DNA from: an uncultured Actinomycetes bacterium | GTDB lineage: Bacteria; Actinomycetota; UBA4738; HRBIN12 | Length of the DNA: 64,000 nucleotides | Assembly: GCA_963704885.1 (NCBI GenBank) | Contig: CAVPIB010000007.1 | Span: 160,001 to 224,000 of the forward strand | Reading direction: 5' to 3' | Part shown: positions 34,532 through 59,239 of the stretch, piece by piece | Position numbering within the stretch: the stretch's first letter is position 1 | Layout: every line of letters starts with the position of its first letter | Notes under the pieces: model-generated | What the model saw: only the letters and a program-made list of their open reading frames with translations | What the model was told of the DNA's origin: nothing | Databases searched by the model: none | Program-made: the position numbers and the translations under genes

Positions 34532-34822
34532 TTCACCGCGTGGAGCGTGAGCAGCACGAACCCCTCCTCGAACGTTGCCGGCACGGTCGTCGCTCCGGCG
34601 ATCGCCTCGGACATCGTCACCGACACCACGACCCGACCGCAAGCCATCTTCGGTCGGAGGTCTGGCGCCAGCAACTCGGGCGCTTGATCGGGGGGTGCTC
34701 CGACGCCCCTGCAGGGGAGTAGAACCCCAAGCACCCAGCGTCGAACGTCTCGTGATGGCCCCGGTGGCTGAGGTCCGGTCCTAGCCGTTCAGCTCCCGCC
34801 CTGGGTGAATGCGCCCTATAGG

Positions 34823-35416
34823 ATGTGGTCGTTGTCCGCCTATCTCGCGCTCTTCGCATCCTCGATCGGACCCGTGTCGCTGTTCCTGGCGTTGCTAGCC
34901 GTGCTCGCGCAGGTGAGCGTGCTCGTCGCCGTCGTGTTATGGGTGGCGGCGAGGTTCTCGGACGGTGCGGCCCGAACCAAGGCACGTCTCCTGGGCGCGA
35001 TCGGTCCATCGGCATCGTGGCTCGCCTGGGGGGTGGCACTCGTTTGCACCCTTGGCAGCCTCTACTACTCCGAGGTTGCCCACTTCGTTCCGTGCAAGCT
35101 CTGTTGGTACCAGCGGATCGCTATGTATCCGCTGGTGGTGGTGCTTGGCGTGGCGGCATGGCGCCAGCGAACCGAGATCGCTCGTGCCACCTTGCCTCTC
35201 GTCGCCATCGGCGCGGCGATCTCGACCTACCACTACCTGCTGGAGCGGTTCCCTTCGTTGGAGAGCGCTGCCAGTTGTGACCCCTCCGCGCCATGCACGG
35301 TGGTGTGGGTGTGGCGGTTCCACTACCTGTCGATCCCGGCCATGGCCCTGAGCGGCTTCGCGTTGATCGCCGTCCTCATCCTCATCGCGACCGACCCCGA
35401 CCCCGGAACGGAGTGA
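34823..35416 (+). CDS. dsbB: Disulfide bond formation protein B (BdbC/DsbB family)
   Basis: GSLYYSE...[14 protein letters not shown] and second Cys pair SCDPSAPC. Confidence 0.9.
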
Positions 35417-36075
35417 CCACGATGCCGTCAGCCAGCAAACGTCGAGCGATGGAGCGGGAGCACCGGCGACGTCAGATGCGCACCGTCGGTATCGCGGTGG
35501 CGGCTGTCGCCGCGGTCGCGATCGCGGCGATCGTGGTGAGCGCGCTCGGGGGTGAGGAGTCAACCGACCCCCGGGTCAGTCAGACAAGGCCCGTCACCGT
35601 AGCGGGCGAGCCGCTCCCGGCCTTCGGCGCGGAGCCAGATCCCGCCGTCGGGATGGCGGCGCCGGGCCTCGAAGGAGAGACGTTCGACGGTTCGCCGATC
35701 TCGATCACGCCAGGCCAGGGGCCGATGGCGATCTGGTTCGTGGCGCACTGGTGTCCGCACTGCCAAGCCGAGGTGCCCCGTATCGTCGCGCTCGCGGAAC
35801 AGGGCAAGCTCCCTGACGGTGTCCAGATCGCCGCGGTGTCCACGGGCGAAGATCCCGCCGGGCCCAACTACCCCCCGTCGGCCTGGCTCGAGGTCGAAGG
35901 GTGGCCCTTCCCCGTGCTGGCCGACGACGAGAACGGCACGGCCGCCACCGCATACGGGTTGGGGGGGTTCCCGTTCCTCGTACTGGTCGATGCCGACGGG
36001 AACGTCACGGCTCGCGCCTCAGGCGAATTGGGGGACGATGGCATCGTCGCCGCCCTGAACAGCCTGGCGGGCTAG
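35413..36075 (+). CDS. Membrane-anchored thioredoxin-fold oxidoreductase (CPHC, DsbA-like motif on a TlpA scaffold)
   Basis: N-terminal TM; WFVAHWCPHCQAEVP; cis-Pro loop GFP; GTGA overlap with dsbB. Confidence 0.88.
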   Translation: MTTMPSASKRRAMEREHRRRQMRTVGIAVAAVAAVAIAAIVVSALGGEESTDPRVSQTRPVTVAGEPLPAFGAEPDPAVGMAAPGLEGETFDGSPISITPGQGPMAIWFVAHWCPHCQAEVPRIVALAEQGKLPDGVQIAAVSTGEDPAGPNYPPSAWLEVEGWPFPVLADDENGTAATAYGLGGFPFLVLVDADGNVTARASGELGDDGIVAALNSLAG

Positions 36076-36125
36076 ACCGGATGACGCAGCCTTCAGGCGT
36101 CGTCGGTGTGTGTGGGGAAGCTTGC

Positions 36126-36151
36126 GGAATAGACCCGGGCTTTCCGGTGTC
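36126..36151 (+). promoter_or_regulatory. ECF-type promoter GGAATA-N16-TGTC
   Basis: Ends 9 nt before GTG 36161; variant of the local GGAATC-N16-CGTC motif. Confidence 0.55.
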
Positions 36152-36160
36152 CACACTGTT

Positions 36161-36733
36161 GTGAAGTCACCGCGGGCCTTCGCTGGCCTATCCTTGCTCG
36201 TCGGAGCCTTGGCCATGCTCGCGGCCGCGTGCTCGTCAGCGGCCGCTCCTATCGCCGATACGCCTTCGGCCACGAGAAGCACGCCGTCTCCTAGCGTAGC
36301 GGCCTCCGTCGCAGGTCCCGCCACGGTCCCCGAGGTGCTGGACTTCGAGGCTCCCGCTCTGGCCGGCGGGACCCTGAAGGGAGCCGACTACTCGGGCAAG
36401 GACCTCGCCATATGGTTCTGGGCGCCGTGGTGAACGACTTGTCAGGGGGAAGCCCCTGAAGTCGCGCGGGTCTCGCGCGCCTACGCAGGTCAGGTCGAGT
36501 TCCTCGGCATGGCGGGACGCGACTCGACCGACGCCATGCAGAGGTTCGTCGACAACTTCTCCCTGACGTTCCCGCAGGCTGTTTCCGAAGACGGCTCCTT
36601 ATGGGCGCGCTTCGGTGTCCCTTACCAGCCTGCCTGGGTCTTCGTGAACGACGACGGCCACGCTCAGGTCGTCTCCGGTGCGATCCCCGAGGACGATCTG
36701 AAGAAGATCCTCGATCAGCTGATCGCGGCTTAG
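36161..36733 (+). CDS. Selenocysteine-containing TlpA/redoxin lipoprotein (UxxC); TGA 36431-36433 read as Sec
   Basis: Lipobox LAAAC; IWFWAPW-TGA-TTCQGEAPEV continues in frame into ORF 36509-36733 (FGVPYQPAWVFVN); hairpin directly 3' of the TGA. Confidence 0.88.
36435..36464 (+). promoter_or_regulatory. Bacterial SECIS-like hairpin
   Basis: CGACT-(TG bulge)-TCAGGGG-[GAAG loop]-CCCCTGA-AGTCG, starting at the second base after the TGA. Confidence 0.8.
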
Positions 36734-36737
36734 CGTC

Positions 36738-37100
36738 CTACTCGGTCGACCCTCGGAACTCCAGGGCATAGGTCCACCGGGCTGGGTCTTCTGCGTGCTC
36801 GAAGCGCAGGAGCCTGCCCTCCTCGCCGCCGGGCAGGACGACGGGCAGTCCGACGTGCTCGTCCGTCGGCCACAACTCCTGCCTGACATCGTCCTCCAGC
36901 ACCAGGAGGGTCATCGGGTGTTCTCCATCTCGTTCGAGAGGTGGGTGCCAATCGTCGTCCTCGAGCCGCCGGACCCGGACGAAGCGGGGTACCGCGTGCA
37001 GGAGCACCGGCTCACCGGGAGACTTCCAGGCCTTACCGAAGAATCGCCAGCGCTCCCCATCCTTGGACGTCTCGATCACCCAACATTCCTCCGCACCCAT
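36738..37100 (-). CDS. Hypothetical protein, last gene of the tlpA-ccdA operon
   Basis: GGAGG RBS; Trp-rich 120 aa ORF directly after ccdA. Confidence 0.6.
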   Translation of the reverse strand: MGAEECWVIETSKDGERWRFFGKAWKSPGEPVLLHAVPRFVRVRRLEDDDWHPPLERDGEHPMTLLVLEDDVRQELWPTDEHVGLPVVLPGGEEGRLLRFEHAEDPARWTYALEFRGSTE

Positions 37101-37120
37101 GGGCCGCGGTCCTCCCTTCA

Positions 37121-37873
37121 TCACAGCGGGGGCTCGAAGTTGTTGACCAACCGAAGCACCGGCCCCATGACCTGGGTCCATAGACCAGAGATGAGCAACA
37201 CGCCGATCGAGACCATGATGACACCCGATACCAAGGAGATCGCCTCGTGGTGCCGCTTGAGTACGTCGAGGGCTCCCATCAGCCGGCCGACGCCCAGGCC
37301 GAGCAGGATGAACGGCAAGCCGAGGCCCATCGAGTACACGAACAGCAGCAACGATCCCCTTGCAGAGTTGCCCTGAACCGTGGCGAGCGCCAGCGTTCCG
37401 GCCAGGACCGGACCGATGCAAGGGGTCCATCCCGCGGCGAAGGCCATCCCCAAGGGATAGGCCGATGCGCGACCCGGGCGTAGCTTGGTCAGGAAGGGGC
37501 GCCTATCCGCATACAGCGCCGCCGTTCCGGCTCGGAGTCCCTGCAGGATCAAGATCATCCCGACGCCCGCCACCACGACTCCCGCGATCCGCTGCCCCGT
37601 CTGCGACCGAACGATGGGCACGAGCGTTCCCGCGAACGCACCCAGCGCGGTGAACACGGTGGCGAACCCCGCCACGAAGAACAGCATGGGTGCGATGTCG
37701 GGTCGCGTCGTCACACCGCTCGTTCCACCTACCGCCGCACGCGCTTGCGTGCCGGAGACGAACGAGAGATAGCCGGGCACGAGCGGCAACACGCATGGTG
37801 AGGCGAAAGAGACCACGCCCGCTGCGAACGCTATGAGTGGCGCCCACCAAGCCGTGAGATCGAAGACCGACAT
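37121..37873 (-). CDS. ccdA: Cytochrome c biogenesis / thiol-disulfide transporter CcdA
   Basis: AGVVSFASPCVLPLVPGYL and FAAGWTPCIGPVL; six TM segments. Confidence 0.93.
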   Translation of the reverse strand: MSVFDLTAWWAPLIAFAAGVVSFASPCVLPLVPGYLSFVSGTQARAAVGGTSGVTTRPDIAPMLFFVAGFATVFTALGAFAGTLVPIVRSQTGQRIAGVVVAGVGMILILQGLRAGTAALYADRRPFLTKLRPGRASAYPLGMAFAAGWTPCIGPVLAGTLALATVQGNSARGSLLLFVYSMGLGLPFILLGLGVGRLMGALDVLKRHHEAISLVSGVIMVSIGVLLISGLWTQVMGPVLRLVNNFEPPL

Positions 37874-37876
37874 CGG

Positions 37877-38500
37877 TCAGGCTGTGACGCCGAGATCGGT
37901 TTCGATCAGCTGCTCCAGGGACGCGGCGTCCAACCCACCGACCCAGACCTCGGCGATCTCCCCTCCGGGACGGATGAAGATCGTGGTCGGCATCCCCACC
38001 CCACCTGAGGCATTGAAGAAGACCCCGCTGCGGTCGATCGCTGTCGGATAGGTGATCCCGGTCTCCTTGGCGAGCGCGATGCTGGCGCTCGCGGCATCGC
38101 TCTGTGAGATCCCAAGGAAGGCGACCTGGTCACCAAGCTTCTTATGTACCTGCTCGAAGTCCGGCATCTCACCGATGCAGTTGGGGCACCACGACGCGAA
38201 GAAGTTGATAACGAGCGGCTTGTCGGCCAGCGTCGAGTACTCGACCGTGCCGCCCCCTTCGAGCGCCGGCAACTCCAAACTCTCCAGGGTCCCGCCGGTC
38301 CGGATATCCCCCGCGTAGGCGACTCCGCCGGCGCCGTTGCGGATCAGGAGGAAACCGATCCCCACGACGGCGATCAAGACCACGGCTGCGATACCCGCCG
38401 AGCGCAGTCGGGCCTTGTGACGGGCGTGCTTCGCTCGCCTCTCACGAGCTGCTCGCGCCTGTACATTCCTCTCGCCTTTGCTCGCGGCGCGCTCAGCCAC
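37877..38500 (-). CDS. TlpA/ResA-like membrane-anchored disulfide reductase
   Basis: PLVINFFASWCPNCIGEMP, GMPTTIFI; AGGAGG RBS before GTG 38500. Confidence 0.9.
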   Translation of the reverse strand: MAERAASKGERNVQARAARERRAKHARHKARLRSAGIAAVVLIAVVGIGFLLIRNGAGGVAYAGDIRTGGTLESLELPALEGGGTVEYSTLADKPLVINFFASWCPNCIGEMPDFEQVHKKLGDQVAFLGISQSDAASASIALAKETGITYPTAIDRSGVFFNASGGVGMPTTIFIRPGGEIAEVWVGGLDAASLEQLIETDLGVTA

Positions 38501-38564
38501 CCGTCCTCCTGTCGGTCGGGGTTTCCTCGCATGGCCGCGGTCACCCCGCGGCCTCAGCATGTCC

Positions 38565-38626
38565 GACGCCCGTGGACACCGCGCGATTCCGCACCTAGGG
38601 GGAATCTTCGAACAGGGAGCGGCGTC
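38565..38626. promoter_or_regulatory. Back-to-back ECF-type promoters, both GGAATC-N16-CGTC
   Basis: Minus strand 38590->38565 toward tlpA-ccdA; plus strand 38601->38626 toward DUF3179. Confidence 0.75.
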
Positions 38627-38663
38627 CCAAGAGAAAGATGTTCATGCCAGGGAGTCAGCGCCG

Positions 38664-39815
38664 ATGAGGATCGGGCGCATCGCCGCGCTGATAGCGGCGC
38701 TCGCGGTCTTCGCCGCAGCTTGCAGCGGCGGAGCCACCCGCTCGCCGGATGCCGGTGAAAGCGCCTCCGCATCCGATAGCTCGTCGGAGGGAGTGACGCC
38801 ACCGCTCATCGATCTCGACGACATCATCTCCGGCGGTCCTCCGCCCGACGGCATCCCGCCGATCGACGACCCGAAGTTCCTGGCGCCTGAAGACGTCACG
38901 TTCCTGGTTCCCCAGGAACCAGTGATCGCGGTCGAGGTCGAGGGTGTGGCGAAGGCGTACCCGATCCGCATCCTGATGTGGCACGAGATCGTGAACGACG
39001 TCTTCGACGGCACGCCCGTCGTAGTGACGTACTGCCCTCTATGTAACACGGGGATCGCATACCTCCGCCCAACCATCGACGGAGAGCTCCTCGACTTCGG
39101 GACCAGCGGAAAGCTCTACAACTCGAACCTGATCATGTACGACCGCCAGACCAACTCTTACTGGCCCCAGGCGATGGGTAAGGCGGTCGTCGGGCCACTC
39201 ACGGGTGAGGAGTTGGAGTTCGTGCCGGCTCGGATCCTGTCGTGGGGGGACTGGTTGCTGGCCTACCCCGACGGGTTCGTGCTCTCGACCGACACGGGGG
39301 TGTCTCGGACGTACGGGAGCAATCCGTACGCCGGGTACGACCACGAATCGGTCCCATTCCTGTTCGCCGGCGAAACCGACCCACGGCTTCGCGCTAAGGA
39401 GCACATCCTGGGGATCGCCGGCGAGGGCGGCGCGATCGCGTTCCCGTTTTCCGAGCTCGCGAGTCGGGCGACGGGTGGCGCGACCGTGGTTCAAGGTTCG
39501 TTCGGCGGCCCGCGCCTGGTGGTCTTCTGGCAGGCGGGAACGGTGTCCGCTCTTGACGCGGCAGAGATCCCCGAGTCAGAGGATGTGGGTGCCGCCGCTG
39601 CGTACGTCCCCGTCGTCGATGGGCAGCGCCTGACTTTCGAGGTGCAAGGCGGGCGCTTCGTAGACCAGCAGACGGGGTCGGTGTGGTCGATCGACGGCCG
39701 CGCGCTCACCGGTCAGCTGGCGGGTTCCCGGCTCGAGGTGGCCTTGGCTATCGATAGCTTCTGGTTCGACTGGGCAGCCTTCCATCCTGAAACGGAGATA
39801 TTCGGACAGGCGTGA
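38664..39815 (+). CDS. DUF3179 domain lipoprotein (CxxC form)
   Basis: Lipobox FAAAC; GGPPPDGIPPIDDP, WHEIVND, TYCPLCNTG, SGKLYNSNLIMYDRQT, FWFDWAAFHP. Confidence 0.88.
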   Translation: MRIGRIAALIAALAVFAAACSGGATRSPDAGESASASDSSSEGVTPPLIDLDDIISGGPPPDGIPPIDDPKFLAPEDVTFLVPQEPVIAVEVEGVAKAYPIRILMWHEIVNDVFDGTPVVVTYCPLCNTGIAYLRPTIDGELLDFGTSGKLYNSNLIMYDRQTNSYWPQAMGKAVVGPLTGEELEFVPARILSWGDWLLAYPDGFVLSTDTGVSRTYGSNPYAGYDHESVPFLFAGETDPRLRAKEHILGIAGEGGAIAFPFSELASRATGGATVVQGSFGGPRLVVFWQAGTVSALDAAEIPESEDVGAAAAYVPVVDGQRLTFEVQGGRFVDQQTGSVWSIDGRALTGQLAGSRLEVALAIDSFWFDWAAFHPETEIFGQA

Positions 39816-39872
39816 ATGCGGTCATCCGGTTCGATGGTGGCGAGGTCACTCGCGTGGTTGTCGGCTCGCCCC

Positions 39873-40541
39873 TCAGCCGTCGATATCCAGGATCTGGTCG
39901 ACGACTTCGTCGAGATCGCGGCCGACCACGTCGGGGGGACCGACGAGAGGCGCCCACGTCTGGCCTGGGCGTGCGACGAACGCTGCCGCCCACCCCGCAC
40001 TCTTCGCCCCGATAACGTCCCAGTCGTGCGCCGCCACGAGCCGAAGCGCCTCCGGCGCGACACCCAACCGCTCCGAGGCCATCAGGTAGGCCTCGGGCGC
40101 CGGCTTGAATCGCCCAACGGTCTCTACGGAGAGCACGGGATCGAGCAGATCCTCCAGACCTGCGTGCGAGAGTTGAGCGTCGGCGACCGCGGCGGTGGAG
40201 TTCGTCAGAGCACAGGTGTGGAACCCGGCGCTCCGCAGCCGCCGGATGGCTGCGGGCACTTCGGGATGCGCGGGCAGCTCGCGCATCTTGCCGAGCAGCC
40301 GCTCCAGCGCGGGCCCGTCCAGATGTCGGCCGCGGCGGTCGGCGACCGCCAGGAGCGCGGCCCGACCCACCTGCCCGAAGTCGCTGTCCAGGCCCGTGAG
40401 CGTGGCCACGAGCGACAGGTGGAGCATGCGAGCGAACCACTCACGGAGTGCGTCGTCATCGCCGAGGGCTTCGGCGAACGGCTCTCGCATGACAGATAGG
40501 TCCAGCAGCGTCTGGTTCACGTCGAACACGATCGTCCTCAT
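39873..40541 (-). CDS. Haloacid dehalogenase type II
   Basis: IVFDVNQTLLD, LTNS, FKP, VAAHDWDVIGA. Confidence 0.9.
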   Translation of the reverse strand: MRTIVFDVNQTLLDLSVMREPFAEALGDDDALREWFARMLHLSLVATLTGLDSDFGQVGRAALLAVADRRGRHLDGPALERLLGKMRELPAHPEVPAAIRRLRSAGFHTCALTNSTAAVADAQLSHAGLEDLLDPVLSVETVGRFKPAPEAYLMASERLGVAPEALRLVAAHDWDVIGAKSAGWAAAFVARPGQTWAPLVGPPDVVGRDLDEVVDQILDIDG

Positions 40542-40585
40542 GGGATGCCTCCCGTGCGCTTCCTTCCAGACGATATGCAGGTCGG

Positions 40586-41794
40586 TCAGGCGCCGACCGC
40601 GGCGTCCGCCTTGTCCATGAAAGCCCGGATCTGCAGCGCCACCGCCGCACCTTCTCCAACCGCCGATGCGAGCTGCTTCGTCGATCCCGCTCGGACGTCG
40701 CCGGCCGCGAACACACCCCGCGCGGAAGTCATCAGCGTGGATGGATCGGTGACGACGAATCCCCACTGGTCGAGCTCGATCTGACCTCGCAGGAACTCGG
40801 TGTTCGGATCCAGCCCGACGAAGATGAACGCGGCAGCCGGATCGAACTCCTTGAGCGCTCCCGTCGCGCGATCTTCGACGATCACGGTCCCGAGCTTGCC
40901 TCCGTCCGTCGCCTTGAACTCCTTGACCGCGTGCGAAGTGAGGACGTCCATCCTCGGATGAGACCGCACCCGGTCCTGCAGGATCTTGGAAGCCTTCAGC
41001 GTGTCGGCGAACTCGATCACTGTCACGTGATCGGTGAACTGCGTGAGGAAGAGCCCCTCTTCTAGGCCCGAGTTACCGCCGCCGACCACCATCAGCTCCT
41101 TCGAGCCCTTGTAGAACGGCCCGTCACACGTCGAGCAGAAGTGGATGCCCCCGCCGATCAACTCTTCTTCTCCGGGGGCGCCTGTGCGCCGGTACGACGA
41201 CCCGGTCGCGACCAGCACGGCACGGGCTTCGTAGTGGTCGCCGGTAGCGGTCATCACAGCGAGGCAGGTCTCGTCGAGATGCGAGATCGACGTAACGCTC
41301 ACGGCCTGCAGCATCTCCACGCCGTAGCGCTCCGCCTGCTCGACGAACCGATCGGCGAGCTCCGCCCCCCCGATGCCCTCGGGGAAGCCCGGGTAGTTGT
41401 CCAGGCGCTCCGTTACGCCGGCCTGTCCGCCCAGGCCCTTGGAGTCGATGACCAGGGTCTCGAGGTCCTCGCGCGCCGAGTAGATGGAGGTGGTCAGGCC
41501 GGTCGGGCCCCCGCCGATGATGATCAGGTCGTAGATGTGCATGCTCGCGACCCGGGAGATCCCGAGCTTGTCCGCCAGCTCTTCGTTCGAAGGCTCTGAC
41601 AGATGGGACCCGTCCGGGAACACGATCGTTGGGATCACGTTGTTCCCGTCGTTGCGCTCCTGCACGATGCGCTGACCCTCGGGTTCGACGCCGATGTCGT
41701 GCCATTCGAACGGGACACGCTGGTCGGCCAGGAACTTCTTCGAACGCTTGCAGTCGGGGCACCAGTCGGCGCCGTAGAGCTTGATGTCGGCCAT
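40586..41794 (-). CDS. trxB: Glutaredoxin/mycoredoxin-like domain fused to thioredoxin reductase
   Basis: YGADWCPDC...IPTIVFPDG, then IIGGGPTG, HFCSTCDG, VGGGNSG, GVFAAGD. Confidence 0.9.
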   Translation of the reverse strand: MADIKLYGADWCPDCKRSKKFLADQRVPFEWHDIGVEPEGQRIVQERNDGNNVIPTIVFPDGSHLSEPSNEELADKLGISRVASMHIYDLIIIGGGPTGLTTSIYSAREDLETLVIDSKGLGGQAGVTERLDNYPGFPEGIGGAELADRFVEQAERYGVEMLQAVSVTSISHLDETCLAVMTATGDHYEARAVLVATGSSYRRTGAPGEEELIGGGIHFCSTCDGPFYKGSKELMVVGGGNSGLEEGLFLTQFTDHVTVIEFADTLKASKILQDRVRSHPRMDVLTSHAVKEFKATDGGKLGTVIVEDRATGALKEFDPAAAFIFVGLDPNTEFLRGQIELDQWGFVVTDPSTLMTSARGVFAAGDVRAGSTKQLASAVGEGAAVALQIRAFMDKADAAVGA

Positions 41795-58879: not shown

Positions 58880-59239
58880 ATGCGGCGACGGGGGATCACT
58901 GTGATCGCGATGTCGGCGGTCTTGACGCTGTTCGGTGGGAGCGCCGCGCTGGCCGCGGTTCCCAGCACCATCTCGATCGGGTTCAACCAGGAAACCGAGC
59001 ACTTCCACGGCAAGGTGCGTTCCTCAGATGACGAATGCTCGGCAGGGCGGACCGTGAAGCTCTTCGAGAAGACGGCCGACGGGCGAACGCTCCAAGGCAA
59101 GGCCACCACCAACGCTAACGGCAAGTGGGACATCGAGCTCATGCAGGCTGAGGGCTTCTACTTCGCAGTGACGCCCAAGCAGAAGGCCATGCACGCCAAG
59201 TGCGGGCGAGCGGTCTCGCGCATGGTCGACGTGATGTAG
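58880..59239 (+). CDS. Secreted hypothetical protein (beta-rich, one Cys pair)
   Basis: AAGGAGG RBS; signal peptide ending AALA. Confidence 0.75.
   Translation: MRRRGITVIAMSAVLTLFGGSAALAAVPSTISIGFNQETEHFHGKVRSSDDECSAGRTVKLFEKTADGRTLQGKATTNANGKWDIELMQAEGFYFAVTPKQKAMHAKCGRAVSRMVDVM

What the first reader, a model, noticed from the sequence alone, without database searches (positions are those of the whole stretch)
36161..36733. Hidden exported selenoprotein: UxxC redoxin lipoprotein with SECIS hairpin
Seen: ORF 36110-36433 stops exactly at the first Cys position of a thioredoxin motif (WFWAPW-TGA-ACG-ACT-TGT), and the same frame continues without stops through ORF 36509-36733 to finish the fold. 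A hairpin with 5+7 bp stems, a UG bulge and a G-initiated GAAG loop follows the TGA. The N-terminus has a lipobox (LAAAC). Known: bacterial Sec insertion uses UGA plus an immediately 3' SECIS read by SelB, and UxxC is the typical Sec redox motif. Inferred: a 190-aa surface-anchored selenoenzyme that standard pipelines would split or call a pseudogene; it implies selA/B/C/D in this genome.
Basis: partly seen in the sequence, partly recalled or inferred. Interest (0 to 1): 0.9.

Follow-up and report, generated by a model that had tools for sequence, protein, structure and literature searches.

The report
Selenocysteine DsbF-like lipoprotein gene
This is a real but unannotated gene for an exported, membrane-anchored redox enzyme that uses selenocysteine in place of its first active-site cysteine; it is a new member of a known class, with an unusual two-hairpin recoding signal.

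Summary
Window 36161-36733 (+) is one 190-codon gene with an in-frame TGA (36431-36433) at the first position of a thioredoxin-type WFWAPW-U-xx-C motif.

- **Conservation:** all 43 family genomes that hold an ortholog keep TGA at this codon. More distant homologues read Cys there.
- **Machinery:** selA, selB, selD and tRNA-Sec are present. Two other selenoprotein genes, fdhA and an AhpD-like gene, were also found.
- **Closest solved relatives:** mycobacterial DsbF and DsbE/Mpt53.
- **Export signal:** a lipoprotein signal peptide is conserved in 41 of 43 orthologs.
its hairpin is real, and its upper stem covaries. The likelier SelB-binding SECIS is a second hairpin at 36463-36479. Its GGUCU loop is identical to the fdhA and AhpD-like SECIS loops of this genome, and it fits the published bacterial SECIS model. 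The first hairpin does not.

Sec-containing TlpA/Prx-like oxidoreductases are already catalogued, so this is a new member of a known kind. Selenium incorporation and the direction of catalysis remain untested.

The parts
36161..36733 (+). Complete coding sequence of the selenoprotein: GTG start, 190 codons including Sec91, TAG stop at 36731-36733. It is a DsbF/DsbE-like, TlpA/redoxin-family thioredoxin-fold protein.
   Evidence: Pfam AhpC-TSA 46.8 bits, Redoxin 39.7, Thioredoxin 38.1, all above cut-off. (DsbF 3IOS E 1.8e-34; Mpt53 1LU4 E 1.3e-27).
36161..36232 (+). Lipoprotein signal peptide: n-region with K and R, hydrophobic core, lipobox AAAC with Cys24 at 36230-36232.
   Evidence: A lipobox-like signal plus Cys is present in 41 of 43 orthologs; the two without have no N-terminal region in the frame read. 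The Cys is at least 90% conserved in Cys-form homologues. lspA is present, and lgt-like genes score just below cut-off.
36431..36433 (+). UGA codon read as selenocysteine (residue 91), the N-terminal attacking position of the UxxC motif.
   Evidence: It aligns with the invariant first Cys of 27 Cys-form homologues and of DsbF/Mpt53. TGA is invariant in 43 of 43 orthologs (columns 13-15).
36440..36442 (+). TGT codon for Cys94, the resolving residue of UxxC.
   Evidence: columns 22-23 are invariant TG. The third base is C or T in 39 of 41 distinct sequences and A in 2, which makes a second TGA (the UxxU forms).
36442..36459 (+). Conserved with compensatory changes; probably an accessory or spacer helix.
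   Evidence: pair 26-39 is AU 24 / GC 13; pair 29-36 is GC 25 / CG 11 / AU 2. At least 5 of 6 core pairs form in 39 of 41 Sec sequences against 4 of 80 Cys sequences. The lower stem 36435-36439/36460-36464 is not conserved.
36463..36479 (+). Hairpin 2, the proposed SelB-binding SECIS: 6-bp CGCGCG stem with GGUCU loop (36469-36473). The loop starts 35 nt after UGA.
   Evidence: At least 5 of 6 pairs form in 41 of 41 Sec sequences against 9 of 80 Cys sequences. Synonymous sites in the stem are invariant while the loop's third-position site varies. The loop is identical to the fdhA and AhpD-like SECIS loops of this genome. It fits the published bSECIS constraints; -9.8 kcal/mol on its own.
34805..36075 (+). 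Context only, same strand upstream: a DsbB/BdbC-like membrane disulfide oxidoreductase (34805-35416) and a CxxC TlpA-like protein (ORF from 35293; likelier start at 35422, ending at 36075).
   Evidence: NF002849, 127 bits, above cut-off. Not conserved next to the orthologs: 0 of 41 loci for BdbC and 1 of 41 for the TlpA-like protein.
36738..38560 (-). Context only, opposite strand downstream: DUF7712 protein (36738-37112), CcdA/DsbD-type membrane thiol reductase (37121-37873) and a second CxxC TlpA-like protein (37877-38560).
   Evidence: CcdA and DUF7712 are found beside 0 of 41 orthologs.

Best explanation
The gene encodes a genuine selenoprotein. It is a Sec-exported, lipid-anchored, thioredoxin-fold thiol-disulfide oxidoreductase of the actinobacterial DsbE/DsbF (TlpA/ResA-like) type. 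[quoted passage not shown]

Recoding (inferred): when the ribosome reaches UGA 36431-36433, SelB carrying Sec-tRNA(Sec) is recruited by an mRNA signal inside the coding sequence. That signal has two adjacent hairpins. The distal one (36463-36479, loop GGUCU) is most likely the SelB-binding SECIS proper. The proximal one (36442-36459) is a conserved, covarying helix that may hold the distal hairpin at a workable distance from the ribosome.

Catalysis (inferred): after export and lipidation at Cys24, the selenol/selenylsulfide pair U91-C94 exchanges with cysteine pairs of envelope proteins.

My sub-probabilities:
- Sec is really inserted: 0.93.
- Hairpin 2 is the SelB site: 0.7.
- Direction of catalysis is open: oxidant like mycobacterial DsbE/DsbF about 0.5, reductant fed by a CcdA-type protein about 0.4, other about 0.1.

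What is shown is the gene structure, its conservation, the RNA covariation and the presence of the machinery. Selenium insertion, SelB binding, lipidation and the redox role are inferred.
For: **One gene, not two**
- One frame gives a complete redoxin domain only if TGA is read through.
- The part downstream of TGA is conserved in frame in 41 of 41 other loci.

**TGA conservation**
- 43 of 223 genomes of the family (9 of 33 genera) hold an ortholog at E <= 1e-28. Every one has TGA at the site: 40 with one TGA and 3 with UxxU.
- Five metagenome proteins stop exactly at WFWAPW.
- Cys occupies the site in 27 of 27 aligned Cys forms and in DsbF/Mpt53.
- Contigs from three independent studies cover the codon with no difference listed there.

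**Machinery**
- selA and selB are adjacent; selD and tRNA-Sec (tca) are present.
- selA is found in 203 of 223 family genomes, and in 41 of the 43 genomes that carry this gene.

**RNA signal**
- A hairpin of at least 6 bp with a G[G/U]U loop occurs in 41 of 41 distinct Sec sequences and in 0 of 80 Cys sequences.
- Hairpin 1 forms in 39 of 41 Sec against 4 of 80 Cys sequences; hairpin 2 in 41 of 41 against 9 of 80.
- Hairpin 1 has three pairs with changes on both sides (34 cells against a shuffled mean of 13.4; 0 of 500 shuffles reach it). 85.5% of cells pair, against 34-65% when the partner is slid.
- In hairpin 2 the synonymous sites in the stem are invariant, while the loop's third-position site varies between C, G and T.

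**Which hairpin binds SelB**
- fdhA in 30 of 30 relatives, and the AhpD-like gene here, use UGA + 12 nt + a 6-7-bp stem + loop GGUCU.
- In this gene only hairpin 2 has that loop. Its 35-nt spacing lies inside the published 16-37 nt window.
- In the UxxU forms both UGAs lie 25 and 34 nt from the hairpin-2 loop, while hairpin 1 starts at the second UGA.

**Fold and location**
- DsbF E 1.8e-34 over residues 54-184.
- Lipobox in 41 of 43 orthologs; lspA present.
Against: - No experiment here shows selenium in the protein. No RNA run holds the locus.
- The single-sequence fold is not significant (z = -1.61).
- Rfam has no matching SECIS model.
- Hairpin 2 shows conservation but no compensatory change (0 pairs changed on both sides). 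Part of its invariance could therefore reflect selection on the encoded VA(Q/R)VAR peptide.
- Outside genus g1 its loop is RGGUN or AGUUG, not the GGUCU that fdhA keeps in the same genomes.
- Hairpin 1 is as specific to the Sec forms as hairpin 2, and it does covary, so it may be the real or a joint SelB site.
- The unpaired spacer is not constant. L1+L2 is 10-13 nt in 28 of 38 sequences evaluated, 5-8 nt in 8 and 14-17 nt in 2; five of the 43 were not evaluated by the script.
- The redox neighbours seen in this genome are not conserved beside the orthologs (0 of 41), so they say little about a partner.
- lgt scores below its curated cut-off (111 against 118.9 bits).
- The 43 genomes are relatives, not independent samples. 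The counts include unpublished genomes G120 and G220.
Confidence: 0.85

Rival explanations
1. The gene is a selenoprotein, but the SelB-binding SECIS is hairpin 1 (36442-36459). Hairpin 2 would then be a by-product of the conserved peptide or a secondary stabiliser.
For: - Hairpin 1 sits where a SECIS normally sits. Its stem starts 8-9 nt after UGA, against 12 nt in fdhA.
- It shows true compensatory changes.
- It is present in 39 of 41 Sec sequences against 4 of 80 Cys sequences.
- In 29 of 43 orthologs its loop begins with G.
Against: - Its loop starts 15 nt after UGA, below the published 16-37 nt window.
- It bears no likeness to the invariant GGUCU loop of fdhA (30 of 30) or of the AhpD-like gene.
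- In the UxxU forms it begins directly at the second UGA.
Confidence: 0.17
2. The TGA is a true stop. The locus would then be a pseudogene, or two separate genes: a 90-residue lipoprotein stub plus an independently started C-terminal piece.
For: Gene callers predict exactly this (ORFs 36110-36433 and 36509-36733; truncated database proteins). TGA is a common stop codon in G+C-rich genomes (stated in PMC13449736).
Against: - A nonsense mutation would not be kept at one codon in 43 of 43 orthologs across 9 genera, with the downstream frame conserved in 41 of 41.
- The resolving Cys codon three codons later is invariant.
- Neither piece alone contains a complete thioredoxin fold, because the break is at the active site.
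- RNA hairpins specific to the TGA forms follow the codon.
Confidence: 0.02
3. The UGA is read through, but not as selenocysteine. It might be read by near-cognate Trp or Cys tRNA, or as Cys carried on tRNA-Sec when selenium is scarce.
For: Nothing here measures the residue inserted.
Against: The genome holds a complete Sec pathway and two other Sec genes with the same loop motif. The codon aligns with a redox-active Cys, which is the classical Sec/Cys pairing.
Confidence: 0.03

Closest known systems
Mycobacterium tuberculosis DsbF (Rv1677, PDB 3IOS) and DsbE/Mpt53 (Rv2878c, PDB 1LU4)
   Same: These are the best solved relatives by sequence (E 1.8e-34 and 1.3e-27). The alignment runs through the same WFWAPW-C-xx-C-x-x-EAP active-site segment and the QPA loop. 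All are single thioredoxin-like domains with an N-terminal extension, located outside the cytoplasm (PMC3853704, passages).
   Different: They carry Cys, not Sec, at the first active-site position, and CPTC/CPFC rather than UTTC. They are reported as oxidants in vitro: they fold hirudin and show no insulin reduction or RNase isomerase activity. No activity is known for the protein here. Their proposed membrane partners are DsbD-like proteins; no partner is conserved next to this gene.
[quoted passage not shown]
   Same: Same Pfam families, same UxxC motif, and UxxU variants also occur here. All are 'predicted with high confidence' only, as this one is.
   Different: I could not compare sequences with the listed reference accessions, so I cannot say whether this DsbF-like actinobacterial clade is one of those families or a separate Cys-to-Sec conversion. 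No NCBIfam selenoprotein model fits it (WAxxUGC model: 25 bits against a cut-off of 300).
ResA (Bacillus subtilis) and TlpA/CycY (Bradyrhizobium): membrane-anchored reductants of cytochrome c and copper-protein maturation
   Same: Same fold family and extracytoplasmic anchoring. The best NCBIfam hit is the ResA subfamily, and there are PDB hits to ResA, CycY and TlpA. A CcdA gene lies nearby in this genome.
   Different: The similarity is much weaker (E 1e-10 and worse). The ResA model score of 60 is below its cut-off of 170. CcdA is not conserved beside the orthologs.
Consensus bacterial SECIS model (Zhang and Gladyshev model as summarised in PMC13188914, Fig. 2 legend)
   Same: Hairpin 2 meets all four constraints: loop 3-9 nt, stem 4-16 bp, G in the first two loop positions followed by G or U, 16-37 nt from UGA, and energy at or below -7.5 kcal/mol.
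   Different: The spacing lies at the far end of the range (35 nt, against 18 nt in fdhA and the AhpD-like gene of the same genome). The gap is filled by a second, covarying hairpin. Such a two-hairpin layout is not part of the model as quoted.
Selenoprotein L type UxxU motifs
   Same: Three orthologs (G145, G146, G148) have two TGA codons spaced as U-x-x-U in a Prx/Trx-like fold.
   Different: These are close orthologs of a UxxC protein in one genus, not a separate family. A diselenide has not been shown.

Membership tests
Bacterial selenoprotein gene (Sec-decoded UGA) | In-frame UGA that aligns with Cys in homologues | tested here: met
   the site is the invariant first Cys (C96 of P0004) in 27 of 27 Cys forms and in DsbF/Mpt53.
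Bacterial selenoprotein gene (Sec-decoded UGA) | UGA and the downstream frame conserved among orthologs | tested here: met
   43 of 43 sequences have TGA. The C-terminal half is found in frame in 41 of 41 other loci.
Bacterial selenoprotein gene (Sec-decoded UGA) | A bSECIS stem-loop fitting the consensus model within 16-37 nt of UGA | tested here: met
   Hairpin 2: 6-bp stem, loop GGUCU, 35 nt from UGA, -9.8 kcal/mol. It is present in 41 of 41 distinct Sec sequences and 0 of 80 Cys sequences. bSECISearch itself was not available.
Bacterial selenoprotein gene (Sec-decoded UGA) | [quoted passage not shown] | tested here: met
   All protein models score above their curated cut-offs. tRNA-Sec scores 70.9 bits with anticodon tca.
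Bacterial selenoprotein gene (Sec-decoded UGA) | Selenium shown in the protein | not testable with these tools
   Needs 75Se labelling or mass spectrometry.
TlpA-like / redoxin thioredoxin-fold oxidoreductases (Pfam PF00578, PF08534) | Domain model matched above the curated cut-off | tested here: met
   AhpC-TSA 46.8 bits (cut-off 26) and Redoxin 39.7 bits (cut-off 26.6).
TlpA-like / redoxin thioredoxin-fold oxidoreductases (Pfam PF00578, PF08534) | W-C-x-x-C type redox motif, with the loop that in thioredoxin folds holds the cis-proline | tested here: met
   W-U-T-T-C. The Q-P-A segment aligns with that of DsbF, and the Q is invariant in A1. The cis geometry itself was not modelled.
Peroxiredoxin proper (peroxidatic PxxxTxxC/U site) | Peroxidatic Cys or Sec in a PxxxTxxC/U motif (motif as quoted in PMC13188914) | tested here: not met
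   The only Sec or Cys pair lies in WFWAPW-U-xx-C, which has no T three residues upstream. It is therefore not filed as a peroxiredoxin, despite the Pfam name.
DsbE/DsbF clade of Actinomycetota | Close sequence relationship, including the WFWAPWCxxC..EAP segment | tested here: met
   alignments. One search finds the WFWAPWC pattern widely in Mycobacteriaceae, Pseudonocardiaceae and others. In the tree the Sec rows fall inside a clade (support 99) with four Cys forms.
DsbE/DsbF clade of Actinomycetota | Oxidant activity (oxidative folding of a reduced substrate) | not testable with these tools
   Known only for the mycobacterial proteins (PMC3853704).
NCBIfam ResA subfamily (NF002854) and the WAxxUGC ResA-like selenoprotein (NF041054) | Score above the curated cut-off | tested here: not met
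   60.1 bits against 170, and 25.3 bits against 300.
Bacterial lipoprotein | Signal peptide ending in a lipobox with an invariant Cys | tested here: met
   ...GALAMLAAA-C; 41 of 43 orthologs. The lipobox consensus I applied is recalled, not taken from a tool.
Bacterial lipoprotein | Lgt and LspA in the genome | tested here: inconclusive
   lspA scores 97.2 bits, above its cut-off. The two lgt-like genes score 111.4 and 99.3 bits, below the cut-off of 118.9.

The most novel reading that the evidence does not exclude
The recoding signal may be a composite, two-hairpin bacterial SECIS of a kind not covered by the current one-hairpin model. The conserved U-x-x-C-x-x-E-A-P active-site helix cannot encode this organism's GGUCU SelB loop at the usual 18 nt. 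The SelB hairpin has therefore been pushed out to 35 nt, and a covarying 'bridge' hairpin folds away the extra 16-18 nt. In most orthologs this leaves 10-13 unpaired nucleotides, about the 12 nt used by fdhA and the AhpD-like gene. In three genomes the same distal hairpin would serve two UGA codons (UxxU).

The protein would also be the first selenocysteine member of the DsbE/DsbF disulfide-oxidant clade. Because it usually has no membrane partner gene beside it, it could be a selenol-based folding catalyst that oxygen re-oxidises directly (speculative).
Probability: 0.3. Interest if true: 0.6.

Novelty: new member of a known kind. Interest (0 to 1): 0.45.

Why it matters
- **Annotation:** it corrects the annotation of a gene that callers split in at least 43 genomes of one actinobacterial family, and it adds a third selenoprotein to this genome.
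- **Biochemistry:** it places selenocysteine in the clade of the mycobacterial envelope proteins DsbE/DsbF, whose role in the cell is still unsettled. Closely related Cys, UxxC and UxxU forms give a natural series for asking what selenium buys a thiol-disulfide catalyst in an oxidising compartment.
- **Recoding:** three Sec genes in one genome share one loop motif at two very different distances from UGA. This gives a direct handle on how strictly SelB depends on spacing.

Tried and rejected
- **Rfam:** only two chance-level hits (E 4.7 and 6.2) and no SECIS family. A preprint notes that bacterial SECIS elements are poorly represented in Rfam (10.64898/2026.04.03.716425).
- **Genome-wide scans for in-frame TGA:** these used third-position G+C content, hairpins and nearby Cys. 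They were crude. One search missed the target gene itself. They did turn up fdhA and listed the AhpD-like site, which a Pfam search then confirmed. The other candidates were not followed up. This is not a complete selenoproteome.
- **PF10262 (SelW-like):** no match in the genome.
- **Neighbourhood as a clue to a partner:** BdbC, CcdA and DUF7712 lie beside 0 of 41 orthologs. Other orthologs lie beside what I read by eye as ABC-permease-like, epimerase-like and PPK2-like ORFs; I did not scan those. I therefore did not spend the complex-prediction job.
- **Expression:** no RNA holder is listed for the locus.
- **Contigs:** all were short, and none spans the whole gene.
- **Tree:** the careful search did not finish, so only the quick tree was read. 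The branch separating Sec rows from the rest has support 32, so a single origin is neither shown nor rejected.
- **Spacer-length counts:** two scripts failed on a bug. The repaired one evaluated 38 of 43 sequences; the other 5 were dropped by my own filter on where hairpin 1 ends.
- **Not done:** structure prediction, fold search, the protein atlas and the representative-protein search were not used, because the sequence match to solved structures was already strong. I did not search for 'shorter' database proteins that would correspond to the C-terminal pieces.
- **Supplements:** supplementary tables of PMC13188914 and PMC1088965, which may list members of the catalogued families, could not be seen. 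Whether this exact clade is already in print is therefore open.
- **Papers read, passages only:** PMC13188914, PMC1088965, PMC10778597, PMC13449736, PMC3853704 and 10.64898/2026.04.03.716425.
Full report
**The sequence.** ORF 36110-36433 ends in TGA (36431-36433) directly after W-F-W-A-P-W. It is followed by ACG ACT TGT, and the same frame runs open to TAG at 36731-36733. Read with TGA=U from the GTG at 36161, it gives a 190-residue protein. This has a signal peptide ending in ...MLAAA-C and a W-U-T-T-C motif. The read-through protein matches Pfam AhpC-TSA, Redoxin and Thioredoxin above their cut-offs. Neither fragment alone would hold a complete thioredoxin fold, because the break is at the active site.

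**Is the TGA real and conserved?**
- A database search found Cys-form homologues (WFWAPW-C-xx-C) and five predicted proteins of 105-123 residues that stop exactly at ...WFWAPW. That is the signature of the same TGA in other organisms.
- In whole genomes of the same family, 43 of 223 (9 of 33 genera; 19 of 85 high-quality genomes) hold an ortholog at E <= 1e-28. Every one has a TGA inside: 40 have one and 3 have two.
- At the sequence level, TGA is invariant at the site in all 43 (columns 13-15).
- The resolving-Cys codon three codons later is TG[C/T] in 39 of 41 distinct sequences. In the other two it is TGA, giving U-x-x-U.
- The part after the TGA is found in frame in 41 of 41 other loci.
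- In 27 of 27 aligned Cys forms, and in the two solved mycobacterial relatives, the position is the first active-site Cys.
- Short contigs from three independent studies (runs X1, X3, X7) cover the codon with no difference listed there.
- These counts include the unpublished genomes G120 and G220.

**Machinery.**
- The genome holds selA (493 bits) next to selB (321 bits), selD (373 bits, on two contigs) and a tRNA-Sec with anticodon tca.
- selA is found in 203 of 223 family genomes. That includes 41 of the 43 that carry this gene; the two without are 65% and 67% complete.
- The genome has at least two other Sec genes. One is a formate dehydrogenase alpha subunit with C-N-R-T-U-H-A-P-S (G000 contig C4). 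The other is an AhpD-like protein with C-H-Y-U (contig C1).

**The RNA signal.** On its own the fold is unremarkable (z = -1.61), so the evidence has to come from comparison. I aligned 43 orthologous segments, which needed no gaps (A2).
- *Hairpin 1, upper stem (36442-36459).* It is supported by compensatory changes: AU to GC at one pair (24 against 13), and GC to CG or AU at another (25, 11 and 2). 85.5% of cells pair, against 34-65% when the partner is slid. 0 of 500 shuffles reach the observed count of double changes.
- *Hairpin 2 (36463-36479 in this genome).* It follows 0-4 nt after hairpin 1 (6 nt in one sequence). It is paired in 96.7% of cells and is almost invariant. The synonymous third positions inside its stem never change (one differs in one sequence), while the third position that falls in its loop varies between C, G and T.
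- *Specificity to the Sec forms, tested on 80 Cys-form genes from named Actinomycetota.* Hairpin 1 forms in 39 of 41 Sec against 4 of 80 Cys sequences. Hairpin 2 forms in 41 of 41 against 9 of 80. A hairpin of at least 6 bp with a G[G/U]U loop occurs in 41 of 41 against 0 of 80. The mean folding energy of the 57 nt after the codon is -26.6 against -20.6 kcal/mol.

**Which hairpin binds SelB?**
- The published consensus for bacterial SECIS elements asks for four things: a 3-9 nt loop, a 4-16 bp stem, a G in the first two loop positions (mostly followed by G or U), and 16-37 nt between UGA and the loop (PMC13188914 Fig. 2 legend; also PMC10778597).
- Hairpin 2 meets all four: loop GGUCU, 6 bp, 35 nt, -9.8 kcal/mol.
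- Hairpin 1 has its loop 15 nt from UGA and no G[G/U] step. In 14 of 43 orthologs it has no G in the first two loop positions.
- The organism's own SECIS elements are the stronger argument. fdhA in 30 of 30 relatives reads UGA, 12 nt, a 6-7-bp covarying stem and the invariant loop GGUCU (the count includes unpublished G008). The AhpD-like gene has the same layout.
- In the present gene the only GGUCU loop is that of hairpin 2.
- In the UxxU orthologs both UGAs lie within range of hairpin 2 (34 and 25 nt), whereas hairpin 1 begins at the second UGA.
- I therefore assign SelB binding to hairpin 2 (about 0.7) and treat hairpin 1 as an accessory helix.
- *Caveats.* Hairpin 2 shows no compensatory change. 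Outside this genus its loop is RGGUN or AGUUG rather than GGUCU.
- *A possible rationale (inference).* The residues after U-x-x-C are the conserved ..E-A-P of the active-site helix, which cannot encode the loop at 18 nt. If hairpin 1 stays folded, the unpaired spacer is 10-13 nt in 28 of 38 sequences evaluated, most often 12, close to the 12 nt of fdhA. It is 5-8 nt in 8 sequences and 14-17 nt in 2.

**What the protein is.**
- The nearest solved structures by sequence are M. tuberculosis DsbF (E 1.8e-34 over residues 54-184) and DsbE/Mpt53 (E 1.3e-27). ResA, CycY and TlpA are far behind.
- No NCBIfam model reaches its cut-off, including the ResA-like WAxxUGC selenoprotein model.
- It lacks the peroxiredoxin PxxxTxxC/U site, so it is a thioredoxin-type thiol-disulfide oxidoreductase and not a peroxidase.
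- A lipobox-type signal peptide with the acylated-Cys position is present in 41 of 43 orthologs. The two exceptions have no N-terminal region in the frame read.
- lspA is present, and two lgt-like genes score just under the cut-off.
- The mycobacterial relatives are described as periplasmic oxidants that fold reduced hirudin and lack insulin-reductase and isomerase activity. DsbD-like proteins are their proposed partners (PMC3853704, passages).

**Neighbours.** In this genome the gene sits in a redox cluster. On the same strand upstream are a DsbB/BdbC-like protein and a CxxC TlpA-like protein. Convergent downstream are DUF7712, CcdA and another TlpA-like protein. Further on are DUF3179 and a glutaredoxin-flavoprotein fusion. 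None of BdbC, CcdA or DUF7712 is found beside any of 41 orthologs, so the cluster does not identify a partner. The direction of catalysis is therefore left open: oxidant about 0.5, reductant about 0.4.

**Evolution.** In a quick maximum-likelihood tree of 147 domain sequences, the 42 Sec rows lie on one side of a branch, though its support is only 32. They sit inside a well-supported clade (support 99) with four metagenomic Cys forms. One Cys/Sec switch is compatible with the data but is not shown. No ortholog at E <= 1e-28 was found in the 24 genomes of other families of the order that were searched.

[quoted passage not shown] The first of these date from 2004-2005 (PMC1088965). Exported selenoproteins are thus not new in kind.

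What is new is more specific: a DsbE/DsbF-type lipoprotein clade in one actinobacterial family, unannotated by current models, with UxxU variants and a two-hairpin signal. I could not compare it with the catalogued reference sequences or see the supplements, so it may already be counted under one of those names. For mycobacteria, formate dehydrogenase is reported as the sole selenoprotein (PMC13449736). A preprint reports about five predicted selenoproteins per genome in Actinomarina.

Noticed in passing
L079, L080 (G146, G145) and L164 (G148), at the active-site codons: Three orthologs in one genus have two in-frame TGA codons spaced as W-U-S-T-U-R or W-U-H-T-U-R. This is a possible diselenide UxxU form of the same protein.
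   Followed up: partly
G000 contig C1, TGA at 934393-934395 (minus strand); outside the window; locus L212: An AhpD/CMD-like gene has an in-frame TGA in a C-H-Y-U motif. The TGA is followed by 12 nt, a 6-bp stem and a GGUCU loop. It is probably a further selenoprotein of a known family.
   Followed up: partly
G000 contig C4 58792-60771 (+), TGA at 59077-59079; outside the window; loci L174/L175: The formate dehydrogenase alpha subunit has Sec in C-N-R-T-U-H-A-P-S. Its SECIS hairpin has an invariant GGUCU loop and a covarying stem in 30 of 30 relatives.
   Followed up: yes
G000 contigs C14 (8433-9356) and C20 (5731-6654): selD is found twice with the same score (372.7 bits) on two small contigs. 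This could be a duplicated contig in the assembly or a true second copy.
   Followed up: no
window 34805-41794: A dense redox island surrounds the gene: a DsbB/BdbC-like protein, two CxxC TlpA-like proteins, CcdA, DUF7712, DUF3179 and a glutaredoxin fused to a pyridine-nucleotide-disulfide oxidoreductase (40586-41794, minus strand). It is not conserved around the orthologs.
   Followed up: partly
L024 (G004), downstream half of the ortholog: A stretch of about 16 residues reads quite unlike all other orthologs and then returns to the conserved sequence. This looks like a pair of compensating frameshifts or an assembly error.
   Followed up: no
G020 contig C132 12812-13369 (locus L054): A more distant TlpA-like paralog (E 8.7e-18) also contains one in-frame TGA. 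I fetched it, but my motif pattern did not pick it up, and I did not examine it further.
   Followed up: no
window 36438, loose end of a contig of run X1: A related metagenome sequence diverges just after the TGA, yet it again spells a G+C-rich hairpin followed by the start of the conserved hairpin 2 stem. It is a further variant of hairpin 1 (table 7).
   Followed up: no
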